64,000 nt of DNA from Anaerolineales bacterium (lineage in GTDB: Bacteria; Chloroflexota; Anaerolineae; Anaerolineales; UBA11858), in NCBI GenBank assembly GCA_049644605.1, contig JBARSF010000005.1:538-64537 (forward strand), given 5' to 3'. Positions within the stretch are counted from its first letter, which is position 1. Every line of letters starts with the position of its first letter. Below the pieces are notes generated by a model. That model saw only the letters and a program-made list of their open reading frames with translations, was not told the DNA's origin and ran no database searches. Below, piece after piece: positions 1 to 21,120 of the stretch. A program made the translations under genes and the position numbers.

Positions 1-1
1 T

Positions 2-496
2 CGCCCCAGGAACAATTTTTATGGACCGCGAGAGAGTATTATTCCTAAGATCAATGAATTTAATTGGTATCGCGAGCAGTCGAAAGACCGGATCATCATT
101 GATAAAGGAGAAGCGAGTGTGCTTAATGATGTAAAACTATATTTTGATAAGACCTATTATCTGGATGGGGAAGAATTGAATCATTGCGAACACATCGGGG
201 ATATTCTCTTTTCCCAGGAATATTTGGGAAATCATCCTTGGATGCCGGAGGGTTTAGGTGTCAACAAAAGAGCTCCGGGTCCATTTGAAACCAGCCCGGG
301 TGCGGTTTATGAGATTGAACGGAGTATGGCAACAATTGCGAGGGTGATGACCCAGATGCGCTATCAGCTCTTGGTTGATTCTGAGATTGATTATAGCCAT
401 CTGATTGAGGTGGAACGGCCTATCTGGCAGAAAGTCCTCGACCGTTATGGGGTTGCCTTCCCGAATTACCTGCAGGGAAAAAAGGCGGAACAATGA
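2..496 (+). CDS. Small lipoprotein-family protein, 5'-truncated by the window edge (paralogue of 5224-6024 and 7976-8731)
   Basis: The frame is open from base 2, with no stop before the listed Met at 119. The C-terminus ERPIWQKVLDRYGVAFPNYLQ aligns with ETPIWQFMRNHYGEPL and EDPFWLYVHNRYGVELPSWLQ of the two paralogues. Its stop overlaps the next gene's start (ATGA at 493-496). Confidence 0.6.
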   Translation, partial: RPRNNFYGPRESIIPKINEFNWYREQSKDRIIIDKGEASVLNDVKLYFDKTYYLDGEELNHCEHIGDILFSQEYLGNHPWMPEGLGVNKRAPGPFETSPGAVYEIERSMATIARVMTQMRYQLLVDSEIDYSHLIEVERPIWQKVLDRYGVAFPNYLQGKKAEQ

Positions 497-2178
497 AACA
501 TCAATTCTTTTTGATGATCTTTACAGTTGTTGTGATTACCGCCGGTTGCCTGCCAACTGAAAGTGAGCAGGTAGCTGCCATCACTCAGATCGCAGAAGGC
601 ATTATCGCCACCCAGACCGCTCAGGCGCCAACCCCGACCACAGTTCCACCCACGCCAGTCTGGAAAGACGGCGATACTCGCGTCTCCCTGGTGGATGGGA
701 TGACCCAGATCTTTATTCCCGCTGGTGATTATTTACTGGGTTCCAACCAGGAGGAGATCGATTGGGCAATGGAATGCGGCGGGGCTGATTATACTGATGA
801 AGCTCCGCAGTATTCTGTCCAGCTGGATTCTTTCTGGATTGACCAGACCGAAGTCACGGTGGCTATGTTCAGGCAGTTTGTCGATGAGACCGGGTACCTC
901 ACATTAGCAGAGCGCACCGGTACCAGTTACGTCTATTTCGAGAGCGACTGGTCTTCTATACCCGGCGCCAGCTGGCAGGACCCCGGTGAATTTCTTCCGC
1001 CTGGTACGGATATTTATCCTCTAGGGGAGGATCATCCCGTTGGGAATGTCTCCTGGTATGATGCCTTTGCATACTGCGAGTGGGCTGTCCGCCGTTTGCC
1101 CACCGAGGTGGAATGGGAAGCGGCTGCCCGGGGAACGGACCAGCGGCGCTTCCCTTGGGGAGATGAGTTGACCGAGAGGGACCTGTTTAATCTGGAGGAG
1201 GGCGAGGATGCTTGTTATCAAACCGCTGAAGTGGACGATGGTTATGAAATTACGTCACCTGTGATGGATTTTCCTGATGGGGCCAGTCCATTTGGAGTTT
1301 TGGGAATGGCCGGGAATGTTAAAGAGTGGGTATATGACTGGTATTCACAGAGTTACTCAAATGTCCCCCTGATCAATCCGGTAAACATAGAGGAATCTGG
1401 ACTTAGGGTTGCCCGGGGCGGCAGCTACGCCAGCCAACTGGTTGATTCGCGCACAGCAAATCGAAGGGGCCTTAATCCCACCCTTAGTTTCAGCGATTTT
1501 GGTTTCCGCTGCGTTGAGTCGGAACACGATCTGATGGATCCTCCTTCCAATGAGGAATATATTGCTGACATCACCCTGTTGAAAAACTCCATCACGGTTT
1601 ATCTGTTTCCAGATACTTTTAAGATTGGATCCATCAAAGATGCCTCGAAATTCGAGATAACCGGACAATATGGTCAGTGCATGTATCTCCGGGTTGGTCT
1701 GCGCGAGGGTATGGATGGTTGGATAACAATGGATGACTCGATAAATCTCAATCTGCCCTGCAGTTCTTTTGAAGAAGTGCTGATCCGCCCTTTGTCCAGC
1801 ACCCTGGATGCAGGGGATTACGGCAGAGGGATCCTGACGGTGACTAACCTCGGCAGCTCCGACGCAGTAGTCATACTTTTAGAGGAGGATCACGGTTCTG
1901 AGGAGCAGTCTTTCGGTTACTGGACCTATGTTCGGGTTGGAGAAGAAGTGGTCCGAACGGATATCCCCAATGCCAATTACCAGGTCTATCTAACGTCCGG
2001 ATCGAATTGGGATCCCTCTCAAAACCGCTTCTTAGATGCGCTCAGCTATGAAAAGCTGGATGAACCGATGGAATTCACCAGCGATGGAAACAGATATACC
2101 ACCTGGCAGCTGAGTCTGGATACCACCGAAGGAGAGGCTAGCAGCCTTCCTGTAGATGAAAACGACTTCCCACAATGA
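493..2178 (+). CDS. Lipoprotein with a non-catalytic FGE/SUMF1-like (formylglycine-generating-enzyme fold) domain plus a conserved ~200-aa C-terminal domain, copy A
   Basis: Lipobox signal peptide MKHQFFLMIFTVVVITAGC, followed by a TQTAQAPTPTT Thr/Pro linker. FGE-fold motifs are present: YWIDQTEVT, NVSWYDAFAYCEW, RLPTEVEWEAAARG, GNVKEWVYDWY, RVARGGSY, FGFRCV. The Cys pair of true FGEs after RGGS is absent. The C-terminal tail is EGEASSLPVDENDFPQ. Confidence 0.85.
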   Translation: MKHQFFLMIFTVVVITAGCLPTESEQVAAITQIAEGIIATQTAQAPTPTTVPPTPVWKDGDTRVSLVDGMTQIFIPAGDYLLGSNQEEIDWAMECGGADYTDEAPQYSVQLDSFWIDQTEVTVAMFRQFVDETGYLTLAERTGTSYVYFESDWSSIPGASWQDPGEFLPPGTDIYPLGEDHPVGNVSWYDAFAYCEWAVRRLPTEVEWEAAARGTDQRRFPWGDELTERDLFNLEEGEDACYQTAEVDDGYEITSPVMDFPDGASPFGVLGMAGNVKEWVYDWYSQSYSNVPLINPVNIEESGLRVARGGSYASQLVDSRTANRRGLNPTLSFSDFGFRCVESEHDLMDPPSNEEYIADITLLKNSITVYLFPDTFKIGSIKDASKFEITGQYGQCMYLRVGLREGMDGWITMDDSINLNLPCSSFEEVLIRPLSSTLDAGDYGRGILTVTNLGSSDAVVILLEEDHGSEEQSFGYWTYVRVGEEVVRTDIPNANYQVYLTSGSNWDPSQNRFLDALSYEKLDEPMEFTSDGNRYTTWQLSLDTTEGEASSLPVDENDFPQ

Positions 2179-2225: not shown

Positions 2226-5183
2226 ATGACAGACGTATTTATTTCTTACTCCCGCAAGGATATCGCCTTTGCCCGTTTACTTCATGAAGCTTTAATCGAA
2301 AATGAACTCGAAACCTGGATTGACTGGCAGGACATTCCGCCCAGCACGGATTGGCTGGCGGAGGTCTATGAGGCCATCGAGGGGGCGGATGCTTTTGTTT
2401 TTGTGATCAGTGAAACCTCACTTAATTCCGAGATCTGCAGCCTGGAAATTAACCATGCCGCCCAGCATAATAAACGTCTGATCCCGATTGTGATCAAGGA
2501 TGTGGAGGCGGAACAGGTGCCCAAAGAGCTGTCAGTCCTGAACTGGATCTTCTTTGAGGAGGCGGGGGAAAGGTTCGCTGAAGCGATGGATGATCTGGTC
2601 ACTGCCATCACGGTTGATCAGGACTGGCTTAAGAAGCATACCCGGTTTGAGAATCGGGCATTGGCCTGGGAGCGAAAGGATCAGGATCGCGGCTTACTGC
2701 TGCGGGGGAGCGACCTCACAGAGGCTGAAGCCTGGCTGGCAGGAGCTGCCGGGAAGGATCCCCAGCCCACAGCGCTGCAGACCCAGTATATCCTCAAGAG
2801 CCGGGAGGATGCCACCCGCCGGCAGCGGATCACACTCGGTGCGGTAGGGGTAGGTTTGGTGGTGGCAGTCTGTCTGGGAATTCTGGCCTGGACGCAGCGC
2901 AATATTGCAGTCACGGAAGGATTTCAACGGGCTACAGCCGAGGCTGTAGCTGTTGCTGAGGCGGATACACGGGCAACGGCCCAAGCGGAGGCGGTAGCTG
3001 AAGCCAATGCTAGGGCGACTGCGCAGGTGGAGGCGGAAGTGCAGCGAGATGAAGCCGATAGACAATCAACAATTGCCCTGTCCCGGGCTTTATCTCTGAC
3101 AGCGATTGAACAGCAGGAAGTGCAACCGGTATTAGCACTTCTGCTCGCCGCGGAAGCATACGTGATGGATGATAATCTGCAGACCCGCAGCAGTTTACTG
3201 ACCGTACTTCAATCCAACACAGAGGTCGAACGGCGGTTTCTGCACGGACACCCAACGTGGGTGGGTAGTGTGGACTTTAGCCCGGATGGTCAGTTCCTGG
3301 CTTCAGGAGGACACAACGATGACATCATGTTGTGGAGGGCTGTTTCTGGTGAACAGGTTGGAGATACTGTGTATAACAAACCTGTTACTGGAAATTGGGG
3401 CGGAATTGACTGTGTAGTTTTCAGTCCGGATGGGAATTATCTTGCTACTACAGGCGCGTCGGCAATCGTGCTCTGGGAGGTAACCCAAGGTGGATTGAAA
3501 AATCCCCGGGAATTCATCAACCCAGGTGGCGGCATCCCGGCTGATATTGGAGAGAGCCTGGCATTCAGCCCGGATGGGGCTATGCTGGTCTCTGGGGGAC
3601 CGGAGAACTCATTCCTACTCTGGGATGCGGCTCTGGGAGAGGTGAGAACAACACTGAGCAATAGGCACAGCAAGGAGATTGATAGTATTGCATACAGCCC
3701 TGATGGTCTAATCATCGCATCCGCCAGTGCGGATGATAATGTTATTCTGTGGGATGCTGAAAACGGCAACCTGCTGCAGATACTTTCGGATGTTAATCCG
3801 GAAGCAAAAGAGGGTGTTGGTTTTACCGGGAGCCGCAGTATCGATTTCAGCCCGGATGGGCAAATTCTTGCCGCAGGATTAAGCGATGGGTCTGTCCGCT
3901 TGTGGGATGTGAACAGCGGGAAGGAAATTGGACAAACATTCCTCGGGCACACTGCCAGAGTGTTTGCTGTGGCTTTCAGTCCGGATGGGAATATTCTGGC
4001 ATCGGGCGGTTATGATGACACCTTGCTGCTTTGGGATGTGGAAACAGGGGAACTGCTCTACGAGCCGCTCACAGAGCACAGCGATTCGATTCTAGGCCTG
4101 GCTTTCGACCCAGCCGGCACAATGCTGGCATCCTCCAGTATGGATAATGACATTATCCTGTGGGAAATGGGTCGGGGTTCTTTACCCAAACTTCATTCGG
4201 ATTCAATTCTCAGCCTGGCCTTCAGCTCCGACAGCACGCTGTTGGCATCCAGCGCCAAAGACAACTCGATTCGTTTCTGGGATATTCAGAGTAGACAGCC
4301 ATATGGTCAACCTATCACCGGTTTGGATTCCAGCCAGACTAATCTCGCCTTCAGCCCGGAAGGAAAATTACTGGCAGCTTATTGTGATGGTATTTGTCTC
4401 TGGGACATTCAATCAAGCAGCCTATTAATGAAATGGAATGCGAATTCAGCCCTTTACCCCAGCCAACTGGTGTTTAATCCCCAGAAGGAGATGCTGGCGA
4501 CCGGTGATGGTGGAGGAAATATCCGCTTGTGGAACACTGCTGACGGTTCACAGATCGGTCAAACGGTATCAGCATTTGAGGGGGAGGTGTTTGCATTAGC
4601 TTTCAGCGAGGATGGGAATACACTATTCGCAGCCAATGCTTTTAACAGCCGGATGCTGACCTGGGATCTAATTACCGGAGAAAAAATCTATCTGCCGTTA
4701 GAAAGCAGCGGTAACGTAGGATACTTAATGAGCTTCAGCCCGGATGGAAAACTTCTAAGTTCAGGGACGGCAGGTGGAAATTGGAATGACGTTTTGATTT
4801 TCGATACTTCCAGTGGACAAGCGCTCTTTGAACCATTAAAAGGTCACACTGATTTTGTTTTGTCCCTGGCGTTCAACCCTGAAAATCAAATCCTGGCCAC
4901 AGGAAGTGCCGACCATACCGTCCGTTTATGGGATGTTGTCAGTGGACAGCCGATGGGCATGCCGCTGACAGGGCATAATGATTCTGTAGTTGCTTTAGCG
5001 TACAGTCCGGACGGGTCGTACCTGGCTTCAGCCAGCAGTGATGATCCCATCCGTCTTTGGGAAATGGATCCTGAGGCTTGGTTCACCAGAGCCTGTGAGA
5101 TTGCCAATCGCAGCCTGACAATCGAGGAGTGGGAGACATTTCTCCCTGGTCAGCCGTATCGGGAAACCTGCCCTGAGAATTAG
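2226..5183 (+). CDS. TIR domain - single TM helix - Ala/Glu-rich repeat - 14x WD40 protein
   Basis: N-terminal TIR motifs are DVFISYSRKD, WIDWQDIPPSTDW and AFVFVISETSLNSEICSLEI (candidate catalytic Glu). The TM helix ITLGAVGVGLVVAVCLGILAW is preceded by RRQR. An ATAEAVAVAEADTRATAQAEAVAEANARATAQVEAE repeat follows. There are 14 blades carrying FSPDG-type motifs and WD/LWD ends. No Walker A occurs between the TIR and WD40 regions. Confidence 0.85.
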   Translation: MTDVFISYSRKDIAFARLLHEALIENELETWIDWQDIPPSTDWLAEVYEAIEGADAFVFVISETSLNSEICSLEINHAAQHNKRLIPIVIKDVEAEQVPKELSVLNWIFFEEAGERFAEAMDDLVTAITVDQDWLKKHTRFENRALAWERKDQDRGLLLRGSDLTEAEAWLAGAAGKDPQPTALQTQYILKSREDATRRQRITLGAVGVGLVVAVCLGILAWTQRNIAVTEGFQRATAEAVAVAEADTRATAQAEAVAEANARATAQVEAEVQRDEADRQSTIALSRALSLTAIEQQEVQPVLALLLAAEAYVMDDNLQTRSSLLTVLQSNTEVERRFLHGHPTWVGSVDFSPDGQFLASGGHNDDIMLWRAVSGEQVGDTVYNKPVTGNWGGIDCVVFSPDGNYLATTGASAIVLWEVTQGGLKNPREFINPGGGIPADIGESLAFSPDGAMLVSGGPENSFLLWDAALGEVRTTLSNRHSKEIDSIAYSPDGLIIASASADDNVILWDAENGNLLQILSDVNPEAKEGVGFTGSRSIDFSPDGQILAAGLSDGSVRLWDVNSGKEIGQTFLGHTARVFAVAFSPDGNILASGGYDDTLLLWDVETGELLYEPLTEHSDSILGLAFDPAGTMLASSSMDNDIILWEMGRGSLPKLHSDSILSLAFSSDSTLLASSAKDNSIRFWDIQSRQPYGQPITGLDSSQTNLAFSPEGKLLAAYCDGICLWDIQSSSLLMKWNANSALYPSQLVFNPQKEMLATGDGGGNIRLWNTADGSQIGQTVSAFEGEVFALAFSEDGNTLFAANAFNSRMLTWDLITGEKIYLPLESSGNVGYLMSFSPDGKLLSSGTAGGNWNDVLIFDTSSGQALFEPLKGHTDFVLSLAFNPENQILATGSADHTVRLWDVVSGQPMGMPLTGHNDSVVALAYSPDGSYLASASSDDPIRLWEMDPEAWFTRACEIANRSLTIEEWETFLPGQPYRETCPEN

Positions 5184-5223
5184 GACTAATCTGAATTTGG
5201 ATAAAATACACAAGGAGAGAAGA

Positions 5224-6024
5224 ATGAAACGTTGGATGGGACTATCTTTACTCCTTATTTTCCTGTTGAGTGCCTGCGGTCCTTCCGAAGCGGACATACA
5301 AGCCACCGGTACGCAGGTGGCGGCTGAATTGTACGGCACACAGACTGCGCTGGCGCCCACTATCACGCCGACGATAACGCCCACACCAACGGAAACACTC
5401 ACACCGACACCTACATTCACACTTACAAACACTCCGCACCCGCCGACTGCCACCCTGACGGAAGCTGGCGTAGAGAAGCTGATGCTTTGCTACAAGGCGG
5501 CCGTGAGCCTCCAGGCCGATTGGGAGGTGCATCTCTTGATCTCTGGAAGAATGGGTTGGGAGTGGTACAACCCGGATAATGAATGGAAAAGCATAGATAA
5601 AATATCTCAGGAGCTGAATGCTTTCTGGTGGGAGCGCAGCCACCGAGCAGGTGGAATCAAGATTAAGTGGGTTAATTTAATAAATGTAACAGACAAAAGC
5701 CACGGTAATATTACCCTTATAGTGGATGGCGTGGAACTGCAGGAGTATAGGTGGGAACGCTCGGATTGTGATCAATATCTCAAAGAAATCTGGCTCTCCG
5801 ACACCAAACTCCTAATAGATCCTTGGGGGGGGGGTATGAAACGGATAAGCGAAGTCTCTTTCGCCTACAAGACTATCAATCAGGTTGTGAAGAAGATGCG
5901 CACAGAACTGCTGGAGATCTACGGCATCGATCCAGCCGAACTGGAAGCCATCGAAACCCCCATTTGGCAGTTCATGAGAAACCACTACGGCGAACCGCTC
6001 AGTAAAAATCGGTTTTGGGAATAG
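5224..6024 (+). CDS. Small lipoprotein, cassette copy B (unknown function)
   Basis: AAGGAGAG RBS before the ATG at 5224. Lipobox MKRWMGLSLLLIFLLSAC, then GTQTALAPTITPTITPTPTETLTPTP linker. EAGVEKLMLCYKAAVSLQADW is shared with copy C. The track ORF begins earlier, at 5197. The gene contains a G10 tract at 5825-5834. Confidence 0.7.
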   Translation: MKRWMGLSLLLIFLLSACGPSEADIQATGTQVAAELYGTQTALAPTITPTITPTPTETLTPTPTFTLTNTPHPPTATLTEAGVEKLMLCYKAAVSLQADWEVHLLISGRMGWEWYNPDNEWKSIDKISQELNAFWWERSHRAGGIKIKWVNLINVTDKSHGNITLIVDGVELQEYRWERSDCDQYLKEIWLSDTKLLIDPWGGGMKRISEVSFAYKTINQVVKKMRTELLEIYGIDPAELEAIETPIWQFMRNHYGEPLSKNRFWE

Positions 6025-6035
6025 AGGACAAAACT

Positions 6036-7742
6036 ATGAAGTTAAAACTAACTACATACCTGATGCTCGGGATCGCCTTCCTTGCCAGCGGCTGTGGCCC
6101 CAGCGAAAGTGAGCAGATCGCCACCATTACCCAGATTGCAGCCGGCATCATCGCCACGCAGACTGCCAATGCGCCTACCGCCACGCCCACCCCTACGTTG
6201 AGCCCCGGTGACACACGCACCTCACCGGTCGACGGCATGACCATGGTTTACATACCCCCGGGGGAGTATACACTTGGCTCGACCGAGGAGGATGTGGAAT
6301 GGGCGGTAGAGCAGTGCGGAAGAGCCAACAGCAGTTCCGAATATTCCTGGGATGACGAATGTGATACTGCTGAATTCCAGGACGAGATGCCCCAGCATAC
6401 TGTGCGGTTAGATCCATATTGGATTGACCAAACCGAGGTTACCGTGGCGATGTTCGCTCAATTTGTGGATGAGACAGGATACAAGACGGTAGCGGAGCGG
6501 TTTCAGTATAAGGATCTTACTTACACTGACAAATGGCGGTTTGAGAGAAACGCCGATTGGTCGAATCCATTTGGGCTTGAATCCGCTACCGAGGACTTGA
6601 AGGAGAACCCTGTCGTTAATGTCAGTTGGCAAGATGCCTGGACTTACTGTGAGTGGGCCGGTCGCAGGCTGCCAACCGAGGCTGAGTGGGAGGCCGCAGC
6701 CCGCGGGATGGATCTACGGATCTTTCCCTGGGGGGACGAGAGTCCACTAAATAATCATGCCAATTTGACTGATGACAGGAGTATTGTATTGGGACTCTCC
6801 AGCTCGTACAGCGATGGATATATGTGGATTTCCCCGGTGATGAGCTTCCCGGAGGGCGCCAGCCCCTTCGGTGTCTTGGGCATGGCCGGAAACGTCAAGG
6901 AATGGGTTTACGATTGGTACTCACCAGTGTATGATCTACCACCCCTTGCGGAGAACCCGATCAATACAACCGAAACCGAAATGCGCGTACGACGCAGCGG
7001 CAGCTTTGACACCTATCTCTCAGACATCCGCACAGCTAGCCGGGCGGGGAGCAGTCCGTACTGGACTGCCAGCGACTTGGGTTTCCGCTGTGTGTTATCG
7101 GAACTGGAATTACCAGATCCCCCGGAGCAAGACAGCTCCCCGCCTGACGCTGCGTTCGGGGATTGGAGAACGGTAGTATATGATAGCGTGGACATACATC
7201 AGTATGGGTATCTGAAAAGCTTTAGCGACCTGGAGATTCTAGGACAGTACTCCCAGTGCGAACACCTTAAAATCTCCACGCCGGATTACCCGGAAGGCTG
7301 GCTGCACGCAAAGGATGATGTTACCCTCTACAAGGATTGTTCGGATTTCGAGGAGATATTCATTCGACCTGCTTCTAAGAACTGGTATCACTATCCAAAG
7401 GGATTCGGGGTCCTTACCGTGAAGAACCAGGGAGAGAGCGATGCCTACCTCGTCCTGGTGGACATTGATAATGAGGAGAGTTACGAGATTTATGTGCGGG
7501 CTGGTGAGCAGGTGATCATGGAGGATATCCTCGATGGCACATATGAGGTTTACACAACCAGCGGCACTACCTGGGTTTCCTATGATAAGCGTTTCAAGGA
7601 TGCCGTAAGCTATGAGAAGCTTACAGAGCCAATGGTATTCACATCCACCGAAACCCAAGCGACCTGGTGGGAAATCGTTCTTCAAACTGTGGAAGGCGGA
7701 AATACTGGTAGTATCCCCATTAATGAAAGCGACTTTCCATGA
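6036..7742 (+). CDS. Lipoprotein with non-catalytic FGE/SUMF1-like domain, copy B
   Basis: AGAGGA RBS before the ATG at 6036 (the track ORF starts at 6015). Lipobox MKLKLTTYLMLGIAFLASGC. Same motif set as copy A: YWIDQTEVTVAMF, RLPTEAEWEAAARG, GNVKEWVYDWY, LGFRCV. C-terminal tail GNTGSIPINESDFP. Confidence 0.85.
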   Translation: MKLKLTTYLMLGIAFLASGCGPSESEQIATITQIAAGIIATQTANAPTATPTPTLSPGDTRTSPVDGMTMVYIPPGEYTLGSTEEDVEWAVEQCGRANSSSEYSWDDECDTAEFQDEMPQHTVRLDPYWIDQTEVTVAMFAQFVDETGYKTVAERFQYKDLTYTDKWRFERNADWSNPFGLESATEDLKENPVVNVSWQDAWTYCEWAGRRLPTEAEWEAAARGMDLRIFPWGDESPLNNHANLTDDRSIVLGLSSSYSDGYMWISPVMSFPEGASPFGVLGMAGNVKEWVYDWYSPVYDLPPLAENPINTTETEMRVRRSGSFDTYLSDIRTASRAGSSPYWTASDLGFRCVLSELELPDPPEQDSSPPDAAFGDWRTVVYDSVDIHQYGYLKSFSDLEILGQYSQCEHLKISTPDYPEGWLHAKDDVTLYKDCSDFEEIFIRPASKNWYHYPKGFGVLTVKNQGESDAYLVLVDIDNEESYEIYVRAGEQVIMEDILDGTYEVYTTSGTTWVSYDKRFKDAVSYEKLTEPMVFTSTETQATWWEIVLQTVEGGNTGSIPINESDFP

Positions 7743-7975
7743 TCATCACATAAGACTCAGAATGGTGATGATAGTTTTATGTCAACCCAAGAAAATAAAT
7801 TGAGTAAATAGCAGCTTATTCCACTATGACCATCAGTTCTCTAGTTTTAACTTAGATAATATAAAGATCAGTGCTTGAAGACATGGGGTGCAGTAAGTTT
7901 CTCACCCCTTGTTCGAGATATTGCCCTTGAGTAAATGAGTCAGATATGTTTCATAGATTTAGATTGGAGAGCTCA

Positions 7976-8731
7976 ATGAAAAGATGGATCATCCTTGTTT
8001 TTGTGCTGTTATTCATGTTGAGTGCTTGCGGACCCTCAGAAGCAGATATGCATGCCACTGTCACGCAGGTGGCGGCTGAGCTGTACGGTACGCAAACCGC
8101 ATTGGCGCCTACTGCTACTTCTACAAGCACACCATCAATCACACCAACGCCATCGGAAACACCAACGCCAACAATGATACCAACCATTACGAACACTCCG
8201 CTCCCACCAACCGCCACCCTGAGGGAGGCTGGTGTGGAGAAGCTGCTGTTGTGCTACAAGGCTGCTGTGAGCGTCCAGGCAGATTGGGCGGTGCATAGCT
8301 TGATCTTCTTCAAAGTTCACAGCTACTCTGATAAAAAGTATCAAGAGCTGAATGCTTTTCTCTGGGAGCGCAGTCACAGATCAGGTGGTATCAGGATCTT
8401 TGATAAAAATCCGTTCCCTTTGGGTAACGATACGCTGGTGGTGGATGGTGTGCAAATAGAGAGCCAAGTTTATGGACGCGAGGATTGTGATCCTTATTTA
8501 GGCACAATCATTGGTTCGGCCGGGGGCTTGCGTAATGGTCCCTGGGGTGTAGGGGCAGGCTCGCGGATCAGCCATTCTCGCTCGATTATTAATACTGCTG
8601 TGAGTAAAATGCGAAAAGAGTTACATGAGGTGTACGGGATCTACAACGTCGTATTGGATGGCATTGAGGATCCCTTCTGGTTGTATGTTCACAATCGCTA
8701 CGGTGTCGAACTTCCGAGCTGGTTGCAGTAG
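7976..8731 (+). CDS. Small lipoprotein, cassette copy C
   Basis: GGAGAG RBS before the ATG at 7976 (the track ORF starts at 7946). Lipobox MKRWIILVFVLLFMLSAC. It is collinear with copy B through the Thr/Pro linker, EAGVEKLLLCYKAAVSVQADW, and the C-terminal EDPFWLYVHNRYG. Confidence 0.7.
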   Translation: MKRWIILVFVLLFMLSACGPSEADMHATVTQVAAELYGTQTALAPTATSTSTPSITPTPSETPTPTMIPTITNTPLPPTATLREAGVEKLLLCYKAAVSVQADWAVHSLIFFKVHSYSDKKYQELNAFLWERSHRSGGIRIFDKNPFPLGNDTLVVDGVQIESQVYGREDCDPYLGTIIGSAGGLRNGPWGVGAGSRISHSRSIINTAVSKMRKELHEVYGIYNVVLDGIEDPFWLYVHNRYGVELPSWLQ

Positions 8732-8745
8732 AAAAGGATGTCCCT

Positions 8746-10458
8746 ATGAAAAGGAAATTATCATTGATCATGATCATGATCGGGATCGCGATGCTGTTTT
8801 TAGGATGTGGTCCGAATGAGTCCGAACAAATTGCCACTATCACCCAGATCGCTGCCGGAATCCTCGCTACCCAGACCGCCCAGGCGCCAACCATCACTCC
8901 AACTCCCTCTTTTGGGCCTGGGGACACAAGTGTCTCCCCTGTGGATGGAATGGTAATGCATTATATCCCGGGCGGTGAGTACATTCTAGGTTCCACGCAG
9001 GAAGATGTGGATTGGGCCGGAGAAGCATGTGTTCAGTTCAGTGAATATTGTAGTTCAAGTTCCTTCGAACATGAAATGCCTCAGCATAGTGTCCAGCTTG
9101 ATCCATACTGGATTGATCAGGTTGAGGTCACAATGGCTATGTTTACCAGGTTCATAGAGGAGACCGGTTATGAGACAGAAGCGGAGCGTATTCAGTATTC
9201 GTTTGTCAATGAAACTGGAACTTTTAAAGTCGTTCAGGACGCCGATTGGGAAAATCCATTTGGACCGGATTTTGAGCCCAAGGAGGAGGATCCAGTAGTG
9301 CATGTTAGCTGGTACGATGCCTGGGCATACTGCGCGTGGGCTGGACGCAGACTGCCTACTGAGGCCGAATGGGAGGCGGCTGCTCGTGGCACGGACCTGC
9401 GCCGTTTCCCATGGGGAGATACGCTTCCGGGAGACACACTCGCAAATCTAGCTGATATTAATTTAGATTCTTCCCGTATAAAAAACGAGGATGTGGATGA
9501 CGGTTTTCAAACAGTTAGCCCAGTGATGAGTTACCCCGAGGGCGCCAGCCCGTTTGGTGTCTTGGATATGGGAGGTAATGCCGCAGAATGGGTCTATGAT
9601 TGGTATACCCCTATGTATGATCTCCCTTCACCGGCTGTGAACCCGGTTAATACTACAGAAGTGGAAGTACGTGTGGTTCGAGGTGGCAGCTATAATAGTA
9701 TGCTCACTGCCGCCCGCACCTCAAGCAGAGGTGGGTCCAACCCTTATACGAGTACCAGCTATACCGGATTCCGCTGTGTGTCCTCAGACTTGGAACTACC
9801 TGACCCGCCTGACCGGGATATCACTCTGCCCGACCTGGCGCTTCTTGTGACAAAATCCGTCCTGGACCCCGAAGGACTAGAAATCCAAGGTTCTATATCG
9901 AGCGCCGATGATCTGAAAATCACCGGGCAATACAACCAGTGTTCACGCATAAAAATTTCCACTCCCGAGTTCTCGGAAGGATGGATAGATACGTGGAAGG
10001 TTGTGCTTTACAAGGATTGTTCTGAGCTGGAGGAGTATTTCTTGCGTCTCAGTTCTGGAACTTGGAAAGGAAGATATGAGCGCGGCGATGGGCGAGGTGC
10101 CCTGACGATTTCGAACCAAGGAAATATGGATGCGATGGTTGTGTTGAGCCGAGTTGAGCCAGAACGCGACCCTGATCTGGACGACAGTTTTTATGATTCC
10201 TGGATTTATATTCGATCGGGCGAACAAGCAACTATCGAGTACCTTCCTGATGGTCAATACGAGGTGTTCATCACCACAGGTACCACCTGGGTTCCATACG
10301 AAAAGCGATTCCAGCAGGCAGCCAGTTATGAGAAGCTTGAGGACTTCCTGGAGATCACTTCCACAGCTAGTACCTATTCGATTTGGGAGCTTACATTGGA
10401 GACTTCAGAAGGAGAAGCCGGCAGCATTCCAGTCAATGAGAGCGATTTTCCTCAATGA
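8746..10458 (+). CDS. Lipoprotein with non-catalytic FGE/SUMF1-like domain, copy C
   Basis: Lipobox MKRKLSLIMIMIGIAMLFLGC. Motifs YWIDQVEVTMAMF, RLPTEAEWEAAARG, GNAAEWVYDWY, VRGGSY, TGFRCV. C-terminal tail EGEAGSIPVNESDFPQ is nearly identical to that of copy A. Confidence 0.85.
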   Translation: MKRKLSLIMIMIGIAMLFLGCGPNESEQIATITQIAAGILATQTAQAPTITPTPSFGPGDTSVSPVDGMVMHYIPGGEYILGSTQEDVDWAGEACVQFSEYCSSSSFEHEMPQHSVQLDPYWIDQVEVTMAMFTRFIEETGYETEAERIQYSFVNETGTFKVVQDADWENPFGPDFEPKEEDPVVHVSWYDAWAYCAWAGRRLPTEAEWEAAARGTDLRRFPWGDTLPGDTLANLADINLDSSRIKNEDVDDGFQTVSPVMSYPEGASPFGVLDMGGNAAEWVYDWYTPMYDLPSPAVNPVNTTEVEVRVVRGGSYNSMLTAARTSSRGGSNPYTSTSYTGFRCVSSDLELPDPPDRDITLPDLALLVTKSVLDPEGLEIQGSISSADDLKITGQYNQCSRIKISTPEFSEGWIDTWKVVLYKDCSELEEYFLRLSSGTWKGRYERGDGRGALTISNQGNMDAMVVLSRVEPERDPDLDDSFYDSWIYIRSGEQATIEYLPDGQYEVFITTGTTWVPYEKRFQQAASYEKLEDFLEITSTASTYSIWELTLETSEGEAGSIPVNESDFPQ

Positions 10459-10579: not shown

Positions 10580-12349
10580 TTATTGTCTTTCGATCTGAAA
10601 TCCTGCCCTAGCCAATAATCGAGGGAGATCGCGGATATATACTTTGTTTTTTTCCTTTTCGCTAGGCGGTAGCTCCTCCCAGGGGATCAGATTCGGATTA
10701 GTCTTTTGATCAGAGTCTTTTTTTGATCCATAACGCCAGCCTTCAGCTTTTTTCTCCCGGCACCAGGACTCATGCTCCAGCTTTGCCATGCGGGTGACCT
10801 CATCGTCCTGATTGTCCCCCTTTTCGCTGAATACAAAATTCTCTGCATCCCAATCCCGCAAGGGTGCGATCCGGTACCCTGCTGAATTTAACATCACCGG
10901 TATTCTATCAGCCTGGCGGCGGTTCTTTTCTTTGATATATTCCGACAGATTATCCCAGGGGACAAGAACCTCGCTGGGCTGTTGAGCAATTCCAGAAAGG
11001 TTGATCCCTTCCAGGTAGACCCCATGAAGATTGCGGGCCAGGACCTCATGGGTGCCCTTCTCGAGGATCTCGGCGGTGCAGGTCTGGTCAAGTAAATCAA
11101 AGATCCGTAGATTCCCGAAAGACTTCTGGGCACCTGGATCCTCGCCCAGCAGAAGCCCCAGTCCTCCACTTTCAATCATTCGCAGGATAATCGGAATCTG
11201 ATAATTTCGGAGTTGGTGGTTGAGTCTAAGCCCGGTTTGCAAACTGAATCCTTCATCATCCAGGCAGACATACACAAAATCTAGCGGGAAGGTATTGTCT
11301 TGATTAAAAAGGGATCCAATTCGTTCAAAATCCCCCGACAGGATATTCATGTTTACCGCATTAAATTCACACAATTCCTCAAGTTGTGGGGTTTGAATTT
11401 GGAGGGATTCCAGGATTTGTTCCGCGTTCAGGTCGATGATGGATATGTGTATCTTTCTCTTGGGATCCGGGTTGTGAATTCTCCACCCACGGGCAGCTTC
11501 CACAACTAACCGTTGTCCCATTTTACCCAAACCAACCACCAGTATGTGGGGTTGTTGATTGGTTGGTTCCCTCATCCAGGGAGGACTTTCTTGCAGCATC
11601 AGCCGGGCACCCCGGTCAAAGATATTAAACAGCTCCAACCGGAAATGCGCATTGTTGTTTGTATGCAGTTCTTTTTCCCGCAAAAGTTCCCAGAGCTGGG
11701 AATCAAAAATATGGATGATACAGGTCAAGGTACCGCCCTTTCTTGAGCGGGATAGTTTTTCAGCCTGCACAGCCACTTCTGCGTTTTTTCCATCGTCCCC
11801 TAATACCGAGATCAGGCATTTGGCCCGGTGAAGCTTAACTTTTTCCAGCAAATCTGGATCCACGGCATCTCCATGGATAACTATGGCTCCTGCCGAACGG
11901 GCATTTTCAATCCAATCGTTTCCTTCGTCCATTTCTATCACTACGACAGGATTTCCACCCTGGAGAAATTGTGTCGTGAGACGGAATCCCTTTCTGCCCA
12001 GCCCACAGATAATGATCTGATCCCGGATAAACCACAGCCGGATCCGGTCCGTTTGCTGGATAAAGAGGGAAGTAAAAGCCAAAAAGGCAGTATAAGCGGT
12101 AACGGCCGGGACTAAAAATCGAGCGATTTGCAGTTCCCAGCTGACAGGAGGGGGTACAGCGCCAGAATTCATGGAAATTAATCCCAACGTCAGGTAAAGA
12201 TTGTCCAGGAAAGTCCGTTCCCCTCCTGCAACCAAGCCGTTTTTCCAGAAACCAATAAATCCCAGAATCAGGGAAGATAAACCAAGAGTCAGGATAATGA
12301 ACCAGCTGTAATCAGACCAAATACTCCGTAAATATTTTCCCCTGCTCAT
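10580..12349 (-). CDS. 2TM pore-loop channel-like membrane protein with two RCK/TrkA-N-type Rossmann domains and two C-terminal RyR repeats
   Basis: TM1 is WFIILTLGLSSLILGFIGFW, followed by a pore-helix/filter-like LDNLYLTLGLISMNSG and then TM2 LQIARFLVPAVTAYTAFLAFTSLFI. GxGxxG motifs IIICGLGRKG and VVGLGKMGQ are present. RyR-type repeats are VPWDNLSEYIKEKNRRQADRIPVMLNSAGYRI and EHESWCREKKAEGWRYG...IPWEELPPSEKEKNKVYIRDLPRLLARAGFQI. Confidence 0.8.
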   Translation of the reverse strand: MSRGKYLRSIWSDYSWFIILTLGLSSLILGFIGFWKNGLVAGGERTFLDNLYLTLGLISMNSGAVPPPVSWELQIARFLVPAVTAYTAFLAFTSLFIQQTDRIRLWFIRDQIIICGLGRKGFRLTTQFLQGGNPVVVIEMDEGNDWIENARSAGAIVIHGDAVDPDLLEKVKLHRAKCLISVLGDDGKNAEVAVQAEKLSRSRKGGTLTCIIHIFDSQLWELLREKELHTNNNAHFRLELFNIFDRGARLMLQESPPWMREPTNQQPHILVVGLGKMGQRLVVEAARGWRIHNPDPKRKIHISIIDLNAEQILESLQIQTPQLEELCEFNAVNMNILSGDFERIGSLFNQDNTFPLDFVYVCLDDEGFSLQTGLRLNHQLRNYQIPIILRMIESGGLGLLLGEDPGAQKSFGNLRIFDLLDQTCTAEILEKGTHEVLARNLHGVYLEGINLSGIAQQPSEVLVPWDNLSEYIKEKNRRQADRIPVMLNSAGYRIAPLRDWDAENFVFSEKGDNQDDEVTRMAKLEHESWCREKKAEGWRYGSKKDSDQKTNPNLIPWEELPPSEKEKNKVYIRDLPRLLARAGFQIERQ

Positions 12350-12431
12350 ATCTCTCTCCAGTGATCCTTTGTGATTACGGTTTCCATCCTGAAATCAAAA
12401 CCACGCTATTTGATTAGCAAGAAATCAATGG

Positions 12432-12992: not shown

Positions 12993-12995
12993 CGT

Positions 12996-18169: not shown

Positions 18170-18371
18170 GTATCAGCAAAATAAGTTTAGGTCTGAGTGT
18201 GTGAAAAAAATAATCCCAGGAATATTTCTGATTACTTCAGAGATATAAGTGCTTTTGTTTGGTATTTGTAAGCAGCCCTGGTGATCAACTGGCTGATGCT
18301 GTGTAGTATAATGACGGCTTCTCTTATCTAAAGAAATTCATTAGTTAAACAAAGGATAAACGGATCTAACA

Positions 18372-20690: not shown

Positions 20691-20716
20691 AAAAAAAGAT
20701 GAAAATAATTCAAATC

Positions 20717-21120
20717 CCAGGCCAGCTTATAAGCCGCATTCTGTCTGATGTATATCCGGTTTACACCCCGGAGGGCTTCCTCCCTTTAATACACTGAGGT
20801 GATTATCTGTCTGGGGCGCGCTTCTCAGCGCGCCTCGGTGCAGCCTACCTGGAATTCGAGGGAGACGAGCAGCCTCCCCTCCCGAAGGAGTTCATCCCTG
20901 TTTGGCCTTGCTCCCGATGGGGGTTGCCCGGCCGCAGGCATTGCTGCCTGCGCCGGTGGTCTCTTACACCACCATTTCACCCTTACTCCCGAAGGAGCGG
21001 TATGTTTCTGTGGCCCGATCCGGCAGATCACTCCGCCCCGGACGTTATCCGGCACCGTGCTCGGTGGAGTGCGGACTTTCCTCGCCCTGCGAACAGGGCG
21101 CAACCACCTGGCTGACCTGG
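20717..21120 (-). ncRNA. rnpB: RNase P RNA, bacterial type A
   Basis: The minus strand reads CCAGGTCAGC...GAGGAAAGTCCGCAC (P4 5' strand)...AGTAAGGGTGAAATGGTGGTGTAAGAGACCACC...ACAGAATGCGGCTTATAAGCTGGCCTGG (P4 3' strand, with P1 closing onto the 5' end). Shadow ORFs on both strands fit a structured GC-rich RNA. Confidence 0.85.

What the first reader, a model, noticed from the sequence alone, without database searches (positions are those of the whole stretch)
2226..5183. TIR - TM - Ala/Glu repeat - double seven-bladed WD40 protein without any NTPase module
Fourteen WD40 blades (FSPDG-type motifs) follow a single predicted TM helix and an ATAxAEAVAEAxxRATAQ repeat. No Walker A is present between the TIR and WD40 regions, so this is not a STAND/NLR-like (Avs-type) protein.

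If the TM prediction holds, the propellers and the Cys-containing tail (ACEIANRSL...RETCPEN) would be extracytoplasmic. That is the same outside-sensor/inside-TIR layout as the two TIR-SBP proteins 10 kb away. Comparative-genomic work on conflict systems of multicellular bacteria has described WD40, FGE-like and TIR modules co-occurring.
Basis: partly seen in the sequence, partly recalled or inferred. Interest (0 to 1): 0.65.

Follow-up and report, generated by a model that had tools for sequence, protein, structure and literature searches.

The report
Membrane TIR receptor with outside WD40 sensor
This gene encodes a single-pass membrane protein with a TIR signalling enzyme inside the cell and a double WD40 propeller most likely outside, and it sits in a conserved gene island with ryanodine-receptor-type (RyR) domain proteins, which may read the TIR's product.

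Summary
ORF 2226..5183 encodes 985 aa: TIR (1-129), a three-helix module (130-200), one transmembrane helix (202-224), a helical Ala/Glu stalk with 14-residue period, 14 WD40 blades modelled as two propellers, and a conserved two-Cys tail. There is no NTPase.

It belongs to a large, uncharacterised family (5,688 cluster representatives; at least six phyla). The "linker" occurs only with TIR among the proteins checked, in 1, 3, 5 or 7 tandem TIR-linker units. The sensor after the membrane helix varies: WD40, ankyrin, CHASE2 or FGE.

An outside location for the propellers is supported by charge bias (146/171 homologues) and by sister TIR-TM proteins in the same operons that carry periplasmic-type domains.

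The conserved partner is not the FGE lipoproteins. It is a triad at 10580..15659: P-loop NTPase-RyRx2, a 186-aa protein, and 2TM-TrkA_N-RyR. TIR or TIR-like genes lie beside 37 of 80 triad homologues, and beside 5 of 5 on long contigs. Two 2026 preprints show that phage RyR domains bind or cleave cADPR-type TIR signals.

Best reading, which is inferred and untested: an outside-sensing, Thoeris-like TIR-to-RyR signalling system. I rate it a new variant of a known kind.

The parts
2226..2612 (+). TIR domain (aa 1-129), predicted cytoplasmic, with conserved Glu74 in the C-x-x-E motif
   Evidence: Pfam TIR_2 E 4e-26. AF2 pLDDT is above 90. Foldseek matches SPARTA, SARM1, MyD88 and TLR TIR domains at E about 1e-6. 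E74 is invariant.
2613..2825 (+). TIR-coupled helical module 'LNK' (aa 130-200; helices 132-150, 161-172, 183-201). It contains the HTRFENRALAWERK...LLRG..L..AEAWL motif.
   Evidence: No Pfam family matches. An exhaustive phmmer search gave 5,688 cluster representatives at E<=1e-3. It was always paired 1:1 with a TIR in the 142 best hits, in 1, 3, 5 or 7 tandem units.
2829..2897 (+). Single transmembrane helix (aa 202-224), N-in orientation, preceded by RRQR
   Evidence: Kyte-Doolittle 2.58. It is conserved at the same position in homologues. The positive-inside bias holds in 146/171 homologues.
2898..3113 (+). Ala/Glu-rich helical stalk (aa 225-296) with three 14-residue repeats. It is continuous with the TM helix in the N-terminal model.
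   Evidence: 14-residue period and 29% Ala. A single helix 183-295 is modelled at pLDDT above 90. The full-length model has a low-confidence kink at 230-248.
3114..3224 (+). Short helices preceding the first blade (aa 297-333), with the conserved LLLA.EA motif
   Evidence: AF2 helices 301-314 and 318-329. L306, L307 and L324 are nearly invariant.
3225..4190 (+). WD40 propeller 1 (blades 1-7, aa 334-655), predicted extracytoplasmic
   Evidence: Pfam WD40 and beta-propeller models. Blade markers. AF2 and Foldseek match to 2ymu. Only about 24% identical to homologues whose TIR is 53-88% identical.
4191..5066 (+). WD40 propeller 2 (blades 8-14, aa 656-947), predicted extracytoplasmic
   Evidence: Same evidence as for propeller 1.
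5067..5183 (+). Conserved C-terminal two-helix tail with two Cys (C957, C982), motif W..aC..anRNLT.eEW..Y...PY..TCP, then the stop codon
   Evidence: The tail is 36-60% identical across the family while the propellers are about 24% identical. The Cys pair is conserved. AF2 helices 949-960 and 966-972.
10580..12349 (-). Partner gene: TM segments + TrkA_N (RCK/KTN) + C-terminal RyR domain, convergent with the TIR-WD40 gene
   Evidence: Pfam TrkA_N E 1e-20 and RyR E 2e-19. The RCK part matches KefC, TrkA and Kch. 399 homologues share this architecture. A TIR-WD40 gene lies directly next to it in L167-L170.
12432..12992 (-). Partner gene: 186-aa protein (motifs GVTGHR, AEGADR, GGTGEIV). The same domain is fused to SLATT pore domains elsewhere.
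   Evidence: It follows the P-loop-RyR gene in 29-37 of 80 loci. Fusion to SLATT_1/SLATT_3 in L111. No Pfam, NCBIfam, PADLOC or PDB sequence match.
12996..15659 (-). Partner gene: unknown N-terminal domain (about 420 aa) + P-loop NTPase (GAPGSGKS, VFWDEFD) + two RyR repeats. Repeat 2 keeps the H-W-H-D ligand/catalytic set.
   Evidence: Pfam RyR E 4e-24 (two stretches) and a weak nSTAND5 hit. Sequence. Residue mapping. TIR or TIR-like genes lie beside 37/80 homologues.
15848..18169 (+). Sister receptor: TIR - TM - SBP_bac_5 (OppA/DppA-like peptide-binding domain), divergent from the P-loop-RyR gene
   Evidence: Pfam TIR_2 E 5e-24 and SBP_bac_5 E 8e-49. TM helix and E74 equivalent seen in the alignment. 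NCBIfam OppA-like.
18372..20690 (+). Second TIR - TM - SBP_bac_5 paralogue
   Evidence: Pfam. Alignment.
5197..10458 (+). Two tandem pairs of lipoproteins (275/261 aa of unknown family, then 575/570 aa FGE-sulfatase). They lie between the TIR-WD40 gene and the TrkA_N-RyR gene and are tightly packed with the TIR gene (13-nt gap). A third pair lies at <1..2178.
   Evidence: Lipobox-like N-termini and Pfam FGE-sulfatase E about 1e-58. These pairs are absent from this position in the syntenic relatives L167-L170. They are probably an insertion; an accessory role is not excluded.

Best explanation
The gene encodes a type II (N-in) single-pass membrane receptor. The TIR domain and its coupled three-helix module sit in the cytoplasm. 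One helix crosses the membrane and continues as an Ala/Glu-rich stalk of about 70 residues. That stalk carries a double seven-bladed WD40 propeller, capped by a two-Cys tail, on the outer face of the membrane.

Proposed mechanism:
1. A ligand, still unknown, binds the fast-evolving propellers and clusters or re-orients receptor molecules.
2. This brings the cytoplasmic TIR domains together, which is the usual requirement for TIR catalysis.
3. The TIR domains cleave or cyclise NAD+.
4. The resulting ADPR-type product (cADPR or an isomer) is read, and perhaps also degraded, by the RyR-domain proteins encoded in the same island: the P-loop NTPase-RyRx2 protein and the membrane TrkA_N(RCK)-RyR protein. 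A 186-aa protein is also involved; elsewhere it is fused to SLATT pore domains.

The gene is one of several interchangeable TIR 'sensor' genes of this system. The two TIR-TM-SBP5 genes are others. In logic it resembles Thoeris, which uses several ThsB sensors with one effector set, but the sensing is done outside the cell.

Shown here: the domain anatomy, the absence of an NTPase, conservation of Glu74, family size and modularity, and the gene-neighbourhood association.

Inferred: the topology, TIR enzymatic activity, the identity of the signal, RyR domains as its receivers, and the physiological output (ion flux or growth arrest).
For: Anatomy.

Topology:
- Positive-inside bias in 146/171 homologues, with an uncharged span of 20-30 residues.
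- The TM helix is conserved directly after the last TIR-linker unit.
- A relative carries CHASE2 in the C-terminal slot, followed by further TM helices.
- TIR-TM proteins occupying the same operon positions carry classical extracytoplasmic domains: SBP_bac_5, Bmp/PnrA, Peripla_BP_6, PQQ_2/BamB-like, LVIVD, fn3/PsbP, Lectin_C, FGE-sulfatase.
- Published predictions give the same layout for orthocaspase-TM-WD40 (PMC7475262) and for Ser/Thr kinase-TM-WD40/TPR/FGE proteins (PMC11032199).

Catalytic potential: E74 is invariant and aligns with the Glu of TLR2 and Cat1. The fold matches the NADase TIRs of SPARTA and SARM1.

Sensor-like evolution: the cytoplasmic module is 53-88% identical to homologues while the propellers are about 24% identical. 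The probable orthologue in L168 is about 85-90% identical over the first 230 aa but about 25% identical in the propellers.

Link to the RyR proteins:
- 6/80 family loci in species-representative genomes have RyR genes within 6 kb, all in Chloroflexota.
- Reciprocally, 37/80 metagenomic loci of the P-loop-RyR protein carry a TIR or DUF4062 (TIR-like) gene in the available flank. These are mostly adjacent and on the same strand, in the order P-loop-RyR, 186-aa, TrkA_N-RyR, TIR-TM-X, TIR-LNK-TM-WD40.
- 5/5 long contigs anchored on TrkA_N-RyR have adjacent TIR genes, and 4/5 have a TIR-WD40 of about 1000 aa convergent with it, as in the window.

RyR domains and TIR signals: phage RyR-domain proteins bind 2'cADPR/3'cADPR at nanomolar affinity or hydrolyse them (PMC13232231). 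RyR Tad sequesters gcADPR/cADPR (bioRxiv 10.64898/2026.06.04.730250). The ligand residues H75/W78/H100/D117 map to H-W-H-D in repeat 2 of the window's P-loop-RyR protein, and to H-W-N-N in the TrkA_N-RyR protein, which would make the latter a binder rather than a hydrolase. The 186-aa domain is fused to SLATT in other loci. SLATT is the effector of cADPR-signalling type VII Thoeris.
Against: - No experiment and no dedicated topology predictor was available. Export of a 760-residue WD40 domain through Sec is assumed, not shown.
- Ankyrin repeats, usually cytoplasmic, also occur after the TM helix in some relatives.
- Most family members (74/80 genome loci) have no RyR gene within 6 kb. Outside Chloroflexota none was seen. 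The RyR link may therefore hold only for one branch, and the family may often work alone or with other partners: SLATT_3/DUF4231 in 7 loci, TPR-S in 6.
- In this window the gene is separated from the RyR genes by 5.4 kb of FGE-lipoprotein genes, with which it is tightly packed.
- Binding of cADPR-type ligands has been shown only for phage RyR domains, not cellular ones. The TrkA_N-RyR protein lacks two of the four ligand residues.
- The pore nature of its TM region is unproven: no Ion_trans Pfam hit and no PDB match.
- Matches to curated ThsB models are far below their cut-offs.
- The full-length model bends the stalk at 230-248 with low confidence.
Confidence: 0.5

Rival explanations
1. It is a stand-alone suicide or arrest receptor. 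The protein has the same N-in topology and outside sensing, but the TIR simply depletes NAD+ when receptors cluster. There is no diffusible signal and no dedicated downstream partner. The RyR genes nearby would be unrelated, or would only buffer or degrade by-products.
For: Most family members stand alone among housekeeping genes (L004, L005), and 74/80 loci have no RyR neighbour. Many bacterial TIRs, such as those of SPARTA and TIR-STING, are NAD+-depleting effectors, and the fold matches them. Tandem arrays of 3-7 TIR units in relatives look like built-in effector oligomers.
Against: In the lineage of this window the gene lies beside the RyR triad in 4/5 long contigs and in several metagenome loci, in operon-like order. 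Several different TIR sensors share one triad, which fits a shared downstream reader better.
Confidence: 0.2
2. It is an ordinary environmental signal-transduction receptor, not a conflict system. TIR acts as an output domain that makes a second messenger in response to extracellular solutes or surface proteins, and this regulates K+ transport or metabolism through the RCK-RyR and NTPase-RyR proteins.
For: Sister receptors use nutrient-type binding proteins: OppA/DppA-like, PnrA-like and Peripla_BP_6, plus CHASE2. The partner carries a TrkA_N/RCK domain typical of K+ transport regulators. The island is syntenic beside rpsT-argS in several relatives, so it is inherited vertically rather than carried on a mobile element.
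Against: The ectodomain turns over extremely fast next to a near-identical cytoplasmic module. Sensor content varies between close relatives, and one relative has lost the system entirely. DUF4062-NACHT-TPR proteins and SLATT fusions occupy the same slots. All of these are typical of conflict or immunity loci.
Confidence: 0.15
3. In this genome the WD40 ectodomain works with the adjacent FGE-sulfatase and partner lipoproteins, which act as lipid-anchored co-receptors. They would capture a ligand and dock onto the propellers, in the way accessory proteins serve Toll-like receptors.
For: The TIR-WD40 gene lies between three paralogous lipoprotein pairs on the same strand, with gaps of 47 and 13 nt and no terminator-like site. 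All of these proteins would share the extracytoplasmic compartment. FGE-sulfatase is itself fused as the ectodomain of TIR-TM receptors in L168 (35% identical to FGE2) and L069.
Against: The association is not conserved. FGE homologues lie near 3/80 family loci and 2/80 triad loci, and the partner lipoprotein near none. The syntenic relatives L167-L170 have the TIR-WD40 gene directly next to TrkA_N-RyR without these genes. FGE-sulfatase proteins are common in such genomes, so chance adjacency is plausible.
Confidence: 0.12
4. The hydrophobic helix is only a membrane anchor or an oligomerisation helix, and the WD40 propellers are cytoplasmic. The protein would then be a membrane-tethered intracellular sensor, like the repeat part of NLR-type proteins but without the NTPase.
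For: WD40 and ankyrin repeats are classically cytoplasmic. Some relatives have ankyrin repeats after the helix. The full-length model bends back at 230-248.
Against: With a single TM helix, the TIR and WD40 parts must lie on opposite sides of the membrane. TIR needs cytoplasmic NAD+, and the charge bias puts the N-terminus inside in 146/171 homologues. The same slot holds obligately periplasmic domains in paralogues. The hydrophobic span (23 uncharged residues, Kyte-Doolittle 2.58) is typical of a true TM helix.
Confidence: 0.05

Closest known systems
Thoeris anti-phage systems (ThsB TIR sensors plus signal-activated effectors; types I-XI)
   Same: One or several TIR 'sensor' genes sit beside a constant set of genes that carry domains able to bind ADPR-derived signals. 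TIR has the conserved catalytic-type Glu. Sensor content varies between relatives. SLATT-type domains appear in the same neighbourhoods.
   Different: Here the TIR proteins are membrane receptors with large extracytoplasmic sensor domains. The putative readers are RyR-domain proteins, which are not among the Thoeris effectors I found described and are absent from PADLOC 2023. The match to curated ThsB/ThcB models is far below cut-off. No phenotype is known.
Phage RyR-domain proteins RyDEP and RyR Tad (PF02026)
   Same: The partner proteins in the island carry the same Pfam domain. The four ligand/catalytic residues (H, W, H, D) are conserved in repeat 2 of the P-loop-RyR protein.
   Different: Those are small phage counter-defence proteins that sequester or destroy host signals. 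Here the domain is cellular, fused to an NTPase or to a membrane RCK protein, and encoded next to the TIR genes, which suggests a receiver or regulator role.
Orthocaspase-TM-WD40 proteins of cyanobacteria, and Ser/Thr kinase-TM-WD40/TPR/FGE proteins of Planctomycetota
   Same: A cytoplasmic N-terminal catalytic domain, a single TM helix and a C-terminal WD40 array predicted to be outside the cytoplasm (PMC7475262; PMC11032199).
   Different: The output domain is TIR plus its own helical module, not a caspase or a kinase. A conserved downstream gene set (the RyR triad) can be named here.
Animal Toll-like receptors
   Same: A single-pass receptor with an outside repeat-protein sensor and an inside TIR. 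By sequence, TLR2, TLR15 and MyD88 TIRs are among the closest solved structures.
   Different: The polarity is opposite: TIR is N-terminal, giving a type II protein. The sensor is a WD40 propeller, not an LRR solenoid. The TIR is probably enzymatic rather than an adaptor. There is no evidence of common descent of the whole architecture.
STAND/NLR-like bacterial sensors (Avs, NACHT-WD40, TIR-NB-repeat proteins)
   Same: An N-terminal effector with C-terminal WD40 repeats as the presumed sensor.
   Different: There is no NTPase module and there is a TM helix in its place. Activation must therefore rely on something other than nucleotide-driven oligomerisation.
Npun_R6612-type bacterial 14-blade WD40 domain (PDB 2ymu)
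   Same: It is the best structural match: 34% identity, E 5e-47.
   Different: That entry is a propeller fragment with highly repetitive blades. Here the blades are only 16-50% identical to each other.

Membership tests
TIR domain superfamily (Pfam TIR_2, PF13676), enzymatic subclass | TIR fold (flavodoxin-like beta-alpha core) | tested here: met
   TIR_2 E 4e-26, 92 bits against a cut-off of 28. AF2 pLDDT above 90, and Foldseek matches SPARTA, SARM1, MyD88 and TLR TIR domains.
TIR domain superfamily (Pfam TIR_2, PF13676), enzymatic subclass | Conserved catalytic Glu at the start of helix alpha-C (C/W-x-x-E motif) | tested here: met
   E74 is invariant in 76 and in 59 aligned homologues. It aligns with the Glu of TLR2 'CKYEL' and Cat1 'CWDEL'. 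Residue-level structural superposition was not available.
TIR domain superfamily (Pfam TIR_2, PF13676), enzymatic subclass | NAD+ cleavage or cyclisation activity | not testable with these tools
   This needs a biochemical assay.
Thoeris | TIR gene(s) encoded beside an effector that carries a binding domain for the TIR-made signal | tested here: inconclusive
   Adjacency to RyR-domain genes is strong (37/80, 5/5). That cellular RyR domains bind the signal is inferred only from phage proteins.
Thoeris | Match to curated ThsB/ThcB TIR models at their cut-offs | tested here: not met
   NCBIfam ThcB4 scores 30 bits against a cut-off of 220. PADLOC ThsB models give only partial matches, E 1e-8 to 7e-3.
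Thoeris | A known Thoeris effector (SIR2-SLOG, Macro-TM, caspase-like, DUF6650, SLATT, etc.) in the locus | tested here: not met
   The window's island has none by Pfam. PADLOC has no hit for the three partner proteins. The 186-aa domain is fused to SLATT only in other loci.
Thoeris | Protection against phage | not testable with these tools
   This needs a phage challenge in a host that expresses the island.
STAND / NLR-like (Avs-type) sensors | P-loop NTPase module between the effector and the repeats | tested here: not met
   No Walker A. No NTPase family in residues 1-342. The region is modelled as helices and a TM segment.
Effector-TM-WD40 single-pass receptors (orthocaspase and kinase types) | N-terminal cytoplasmic catalytic domain, one TM helix, C-terminal WD40 array | tested here: met
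Effector-TM-WD40 single-pass receptors (orthocaspase and kinase types) | Extracytoplasmic location of the WD40 array | tested here: inconclusive
   Charge bias and comparative evidence favour it. There is no experimental test or dedicated predictor.
Animal Toll-like receptors | Type I topology with an N-terminal LRR ectodomain and a C-terminal TIR | tested here: not met
   TIR is N-terminal and the ectodomain is WD40. The resemblance is functional only.
vWA-MoxR / iSTAND ternary conflict systems with FGS (FGE-sulfatase) domains (Kaur et al. 2020) | vWA and MoxR components, with the FGS domain fused to the vWA component | tested here: not met
   No vWA or MoxR family was found among the Pfam-scanned ORFs of 1..20.7 kb. 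The FGE-sulfatase proteins here are separate lipoproteins.

The most novel reading that the evidence does not exclude
The island encodes an undescribed outside-in TIR pathway. Single-pass TIR receptors with interchangeable extracytoplasmic sensors (WD40, peptide- or nucleoside-binding proteins, PQQ/LVIVD propellers, lectin/FGE domains) convert an external cue into a cADPR-type messenger. The cue could be phage particles, debris from lysed kin, or neighbouring-cell surface molecules. The messenger is read by cellular RyR-domain proteins, including an RCK-coupled membrane protein that may gate ion flux. This would be a bacterial counterpart, and possibly a forerunner, of both Toll-like-receptor topology and the animal cADPR-ryanodine-receptor axis.
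Probability: 0.3. Interest if true: 0.9.

Novelty: new variant of a known kind. Interest (0 to 1): 0.72.

Why it matters
Known bacterial TIR systems sense events inside the cell. A large, widespread family of TIR proteins whose sensor lies outside the membrane would mean that bacteria can start NAD-derived signalling from extracellular cues, as animal Toll-like receptors do with adaptor TIRs.

Two 2026 preprints showed that phage RyR domains bind or cleave cADPR-type signals. The finding that cellular RyR-domain proteins (an NTPase and an RCK membrane protein) are encoded next to TIR genes gives those results a natural host-side context. It also makes a long-standing question directly testable in a simple system: do RyR repeat domains read cADPR-like molecules?

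The receptor's near-constant cytoplasmic module and rapidly changing propellers offer a tractable model of how sensor specificity diversifies.

Tried and rejected
- Exact look-up of the window's protein in public assemblies found nothing on record.
- A search with the last blade plus the Cys tail, meant to find other N-terminal effectors on the same ectodomain cassette, returned only two fragments. A regular-expression scan of local ORFs for the tail found only fragments of the same family. Whether caspase, kinase or NACHT proteins share this cassette therefore stays open.
- Profile searches of the 186-aa protein family and of the N-terminal domain (about 420 aa) of the P-loop-RyR protein against PDB sequences gave nothing significant. 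Pfam, NCBIfam and PADLOC have no model for them. 'SLOG-like' for the 186-aa protein rests only on motifs and on its fusion to SLATT.
- The promoter and terminator scan was not above chance.
- I considered and rejected a STAND/NLR reading (no P-loop), a vWA-MoxR ternary system (components absent), a diversity-generating retroelement target (the FGE domains are not C-terminal, no reverse transcriptase was seen among the Pfam-scanned ORFs of 1..21 kb, and no dedicated search was made), and a mobile-element origin (the island is syntenic next to rnpB/rpsT/argS in relatives).
- Literature searches found no description of TIR-TM-WD40 proteins or of cellular TIR-RyR gene clusters. That is absence from the searched library, not proof of absence.

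Full report
**1. What is there**

The ORF at 2226..5183 (+) starts with ATG and encodes 985 residues.

- Pfam places a TIR_2 domain at residues 4-124 (E 4e-26) and finds nothing else in the first 342 residues.
- WD40 and beta-propeller models cover about 340-955.
- Fourteen blade signatures (FSPDG-like) are present.
- A single segment, 202-224, is strongly hydrophobic (Kyte-Doolittle 2.58) and is preceded by RRQR. No other segment comes close.
- There is no Walker A motif.
- The segment after the membrane helix is 29% Ala and has a 14-residue (two-heptad) period, with three copies of xAxAVAEAxxRATA.

AlphaFold2 on residues 1-345, with 76 homologues, gave pLDDT 93.5. It shows a TIR (1-129), two short helices, then one continuous helix 183-295 that runs through the membrane segment and the Ala/Glu repeat, then three short helices. 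The full-length model (pLDDT 90.4) shows 14 four-stranded blades and a two-helix tail. It bends the stalk at 230-248 with low confidence. Its best PDB match is the 14-blade double propeller 2ymu (E 5e-47), followed by other tandem seven-bladed proteins.

**2. The family**

A search with the N-terminal 342 residues found hundreds of relatives, mostly from Anaerolineae and other Chloroflexota assemblies. They have the same TIR, the same linker and a hydrophobic helix at about 200-230, followed by WD40 or, in some, ankyrin repeats.

An exhaustive HMMER search with the linker plus membrane helix found 5,688 cluster representatives at E<=1e-3 and 2,730 at E<=1e-10. I annotated the best 142 with family-specific HMMs. 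The linker module always accompanies a TIR, one to one. Proteins carry 1, 3, 5 or 7 tandem TIR-linker units. The membrane helix follows the last unit within a few residues. The C-terminal part is usually WD40, and one relative has CHASE2 followed by further membrane helices. The 'linker' is therefore a TIR-coupled domain, not a generic effector-to-WD40 adaptor.

In one genome per species, at least 526 loci encode relatives. They occur in Chloroflexota, Verrucomicrobiota, Cyanobacteria, Proteobacteria, Actinobacteria and Acidobacteria. Glu74, at the position of the catalytic Glu of enzymatic TIRs, is invariant. It aligns with the Glu of the C-x-x-E motif of TLR2 and of the NADase Cat1. The fold matches the SPARTA and SARM1 TIR domains.

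**3. Topology**

With one membrane helix, the two ends must lie on opposite sides of the membrane.

- Lys/Arg is enriched on the N-terminal flank in 146 of 171 homologues (mean 4.7 against 2.9), and the uncharged span is 20-30 residues.
- TIR chemistry needs cytoplasmic NAD+.
- The strongest argument is comparative. In the same operons, other TIR-TM proteins carry domains that are extracytoplasmic by nature: SBP_bac_5 (the two paralogues in this window), Bmp/PnrA, Peripla_BP_6, PQQ/BamB-like and LVIVD propellers, fn3/PsbP, C-type lectin and FGE-sulfatase.
- The literature predicts the same layout for orthocaspase-TM-WD40 proteins and for kinase-TM-WD40 proteins.
- The two conserved Cys of the tail would fit a disulfide outside the cell. 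I could not measure their distance in the model.

I regard the N-in, WD40-out topology as likely (about 0.85) but unproven.

**4. Sensor-like evolution**

Across 59 full-length homologues the TIR and linker are 53-56% identical on average. The propellers are only 24% identical, and the tail 36%. The closest homologue is 88% identical in the TIR and 24-25% identical in the propellers.

The probable orthologue in a syntenic relative (L168) is about 85-90% identical over the first 230 residues and has a conserved tail, but its propellers are about 25% identical. The blades within the protein are 16-50% identical to each other, so there has been no recent homogenisation. A constant signalling module joined to a rapidly replaced or diverging sensor is what one expects of a receptor under diversifying pressure.

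**5. Surroundings**

The gene lies in a 20.7-kb island that ends at rnpB (20714..21119). In order, the island holds:

- a lipoprotein/FGE-sulfatase lipoprotein pair (<1..2178);
- the TIR-WD40 gene;
- two more such pairs (5197..10458);
- on the other strand, a TM-TrkA_N-RyR protein (10580..12349), a 186-aa protein (12432..12992) and a P-loop NTPase with two RyR repeats (12996..15659);
- two TIR-TM-SBP5 genes (15848..20690).

In a related genome, the region between residue ~150 of the TIR-WD40 gene and the last 200 nt of the first TIR-SBP gene is missing. What remains is a chimeric 220-aa TIR ORF between rnpB and rpsT-argS. The island is therefore dispensable and variable.

**6. The conserved partners**

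FGE-lipoprotein homologues are near only 3 of 80 family loci, and the partner lipoprotein near none.

RyR-domain genes, in contrast, are within 6 kb in 6 of 80 loci, all Chloroflexota and often on the same strand.

The reciprocal test is stronger. Of 80 metagenomic loci encoding homologues of the P-loop-RyR protein, 37 carry a TIR or a DUF4062 (TIR-like) gene in whatever flank was available. Counting TIR genes only, 22 of the 36 loci of at least 9 kb do. The typical order is P-loop-RyR, 186-aa protein, TrkA_N-RyR, TIR-TM-X, TIR-linker-TM-WD40.

All five long contigs anchored on TrkA_N-RyR homologues have TIR genes directly adjacent. Four have a TIR-WD40 gene of about 1000 aa convergent with TrkA_N-RyR, at gaps of 5-265 nt. 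Three lie beside rpsT-argS, as the window does. The window has the same convergent layout, with the two lipoprotein pairs inserted in between. The finding's gene is thus one of several exchangeable TIR sensor genes attached to a constant RyR triad.

**7. Why RyR matters**

Two 2026 preprints report the following.

- A phage 'RyR Tad' sequesters gcADPR and cADPR.

Using the spacing H-3-W-22-H-17-D, which matches the alignment to animal RyR repeats:

| RyR domain in the window | Residues at the four positions |
|---|---|
| P-loop-RyR protein, repeat 2 | H, W, H, D |
| P-loop-RyR protein, repeat 1 | H, F, H, N |
| TrkA_N-RyR protein | H, W, N, N |

The last pattern suggests a binder without the catalytic acid.

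The 186-aa domain is fused to SLATT pore domains in other loci. SLATT is the effector of the cADPR-signalling type VII Thoeris. The TrkA_N part matches the nucleotide-binding RCK/KTN domains of KefC, TrkA and Kch.

None of the three partner proteins has a PADLOC or NCBIfam model. The Thoeris survey I read, which lists 29 putative types, mentions no RyR-domain effector in the passages I searched. I found no paper that describes cellular TIR-RyR clusters or TIR-TM-WD40 receptors.

**8. Mechanism proposed**

Shown: the anatomy, the conserved Glu, the family modularity and the gene association.

Inferred: ligand binding to the outside propellers clusters receptors. The stalk/TM helix transmits this. 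The cytoplasmic TIR-linker modules associate and turn over NAD+ into an ADPR-type signal. RyR-domain proteins bind it and possibly terminate it. The output runs through the NTPase and the membrane RCK protein.

Rivals are a stand-alone NAD+-depleting receptor, a housekeeping solute-sensing pathway, cooperation with the adjacent FGE lipoproteins, and a cytoplasmic location for the propellers. Each is listed with its evidence in the rival explanations.

**9. Comparison and verdict**

The protein works like a Thoeris ThsB sensor joined to a receptor topology reminiscent of Toll-like receptors. It is a member of neither: curated ThsB models are not met, and its polarity and ectodomain differ from Toll-like receptors. 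It is not a STAND protein. It shares its layout with caspase- and kinase-TM-WD40 proteins.

I class it as a new variant of a known kind. The architecture itself is common in databases but uncharacterised. The link to cellular RyR-domain proteins is, as far as I could find, undescribed, and it makes the locus considerably more interesting than the single gene suggested.

Noticed in passing
window 20714-21119 (-): Bacterial RNase P RNA (class A, 257 bits). It marks the right edge of the TIR/RyR island. It is 92% identical to the relative's copy, whereas housekeeping protein genes such as argS are about 74% identical at DNA level.
   Followed up: partly
L001 9999-10666 against window 2224-2672 and 17976-18172: In a related genome, a 220-aa ORF joins the first ~150 codons of the TIR-WD40 gene (86% nt identity) to the last 200 nt of the TIR-SBP gene (70%). 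This implies a deletion of about 15 kb that removed the propellers, the FGE pairs and the whole RyR triad.
   Followed up: yes
proteins P0121-P0262 (relatives, not in the window): Relatives carry tandem TIR-linker units almost only in odd numbers (1, 3, 5, 7). Counts of 4 or 6 were seen only in a few proteins, some of them probably incomplete or with unequal TIR and linker counts. I have no explanation.
   Followed up: partly
window <1-2178, 5197-7742, 7946-10458: Three tandem paralogous pairs of predicted lipoproteins. Each pair has a protein of about 270 aa from no known family, followed by a 560-575-aa FGE-sulfatase protein with a C-terminal beta-rich extension. All have Thr/Pro-rich linkers after the lipobox Cys.
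   Followed up: partly
L091, L104, L108, L111-L113, L123, L124, L153, L155, L156: DUF4062 (TIR-like NADase)-NACHT/AAA_16-TPR proteins occupy the TIR slot next to the P-loop-RyR gene in 11 of 80 loci. The RyR triad therefore pairs with cytoplasmic STAND-type sensors as well as with membrane receptors.
   Followed up: partly
L111 13506-15107 and 9 other loci: The 186-aa partner domain (GVTGHR motif) is fused to SLATT_1/SLATT_3 two-TM pore domains in a protein of about 534 aa that replaces or accompanies the stand-alone form.
   Followed up: partly
L009 9156-9473; L010 156-713; L171 15709-16338: Small stand-alone RyR-domain proteins (105-209 aa) are encoded in the same clusters. They are the size of the phage sponge/hydrolase proteins and may act as host-encoded signal buffers.
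   Followed up: no
window 12996-15659 (-), residues 1-420: The N-terminal domain (about 420 aa) of the P-loop-RyR protein is highly conserved, with many invariant Trp, Asp and Gly residues. It matches no Pfam, NCBIfam, PADLOC or PDB sequence. It may be the effector domain of the system.
   Followed up: partly
window 39764-40046 (-): A cluster of three tRNA genes: Arg-GCG, Ser-GCT and Ser-TGA.
   Followed up: no
window 45870-48197 (+): Topoisomerase I with an N-terminal DUF5679 zinc-ribbon-like domain, in addition to the usual C-terminal zinc fingers.
   Followed up: no
window 51315-53042 (-): A dynamin-family GTPase (575 aa) among housekeeping genes.
   Followed up: no
L049 688-3012 and 6 other TIR-family loci: Outside Chloroflexota, several TIR-linker-TM genes lie near a DUF4231/SLATT_3 protein that also matches Peptidase_C39_2 and a chitinase-like domain. 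This may be an alternative downstream partner.
   Followed up: no
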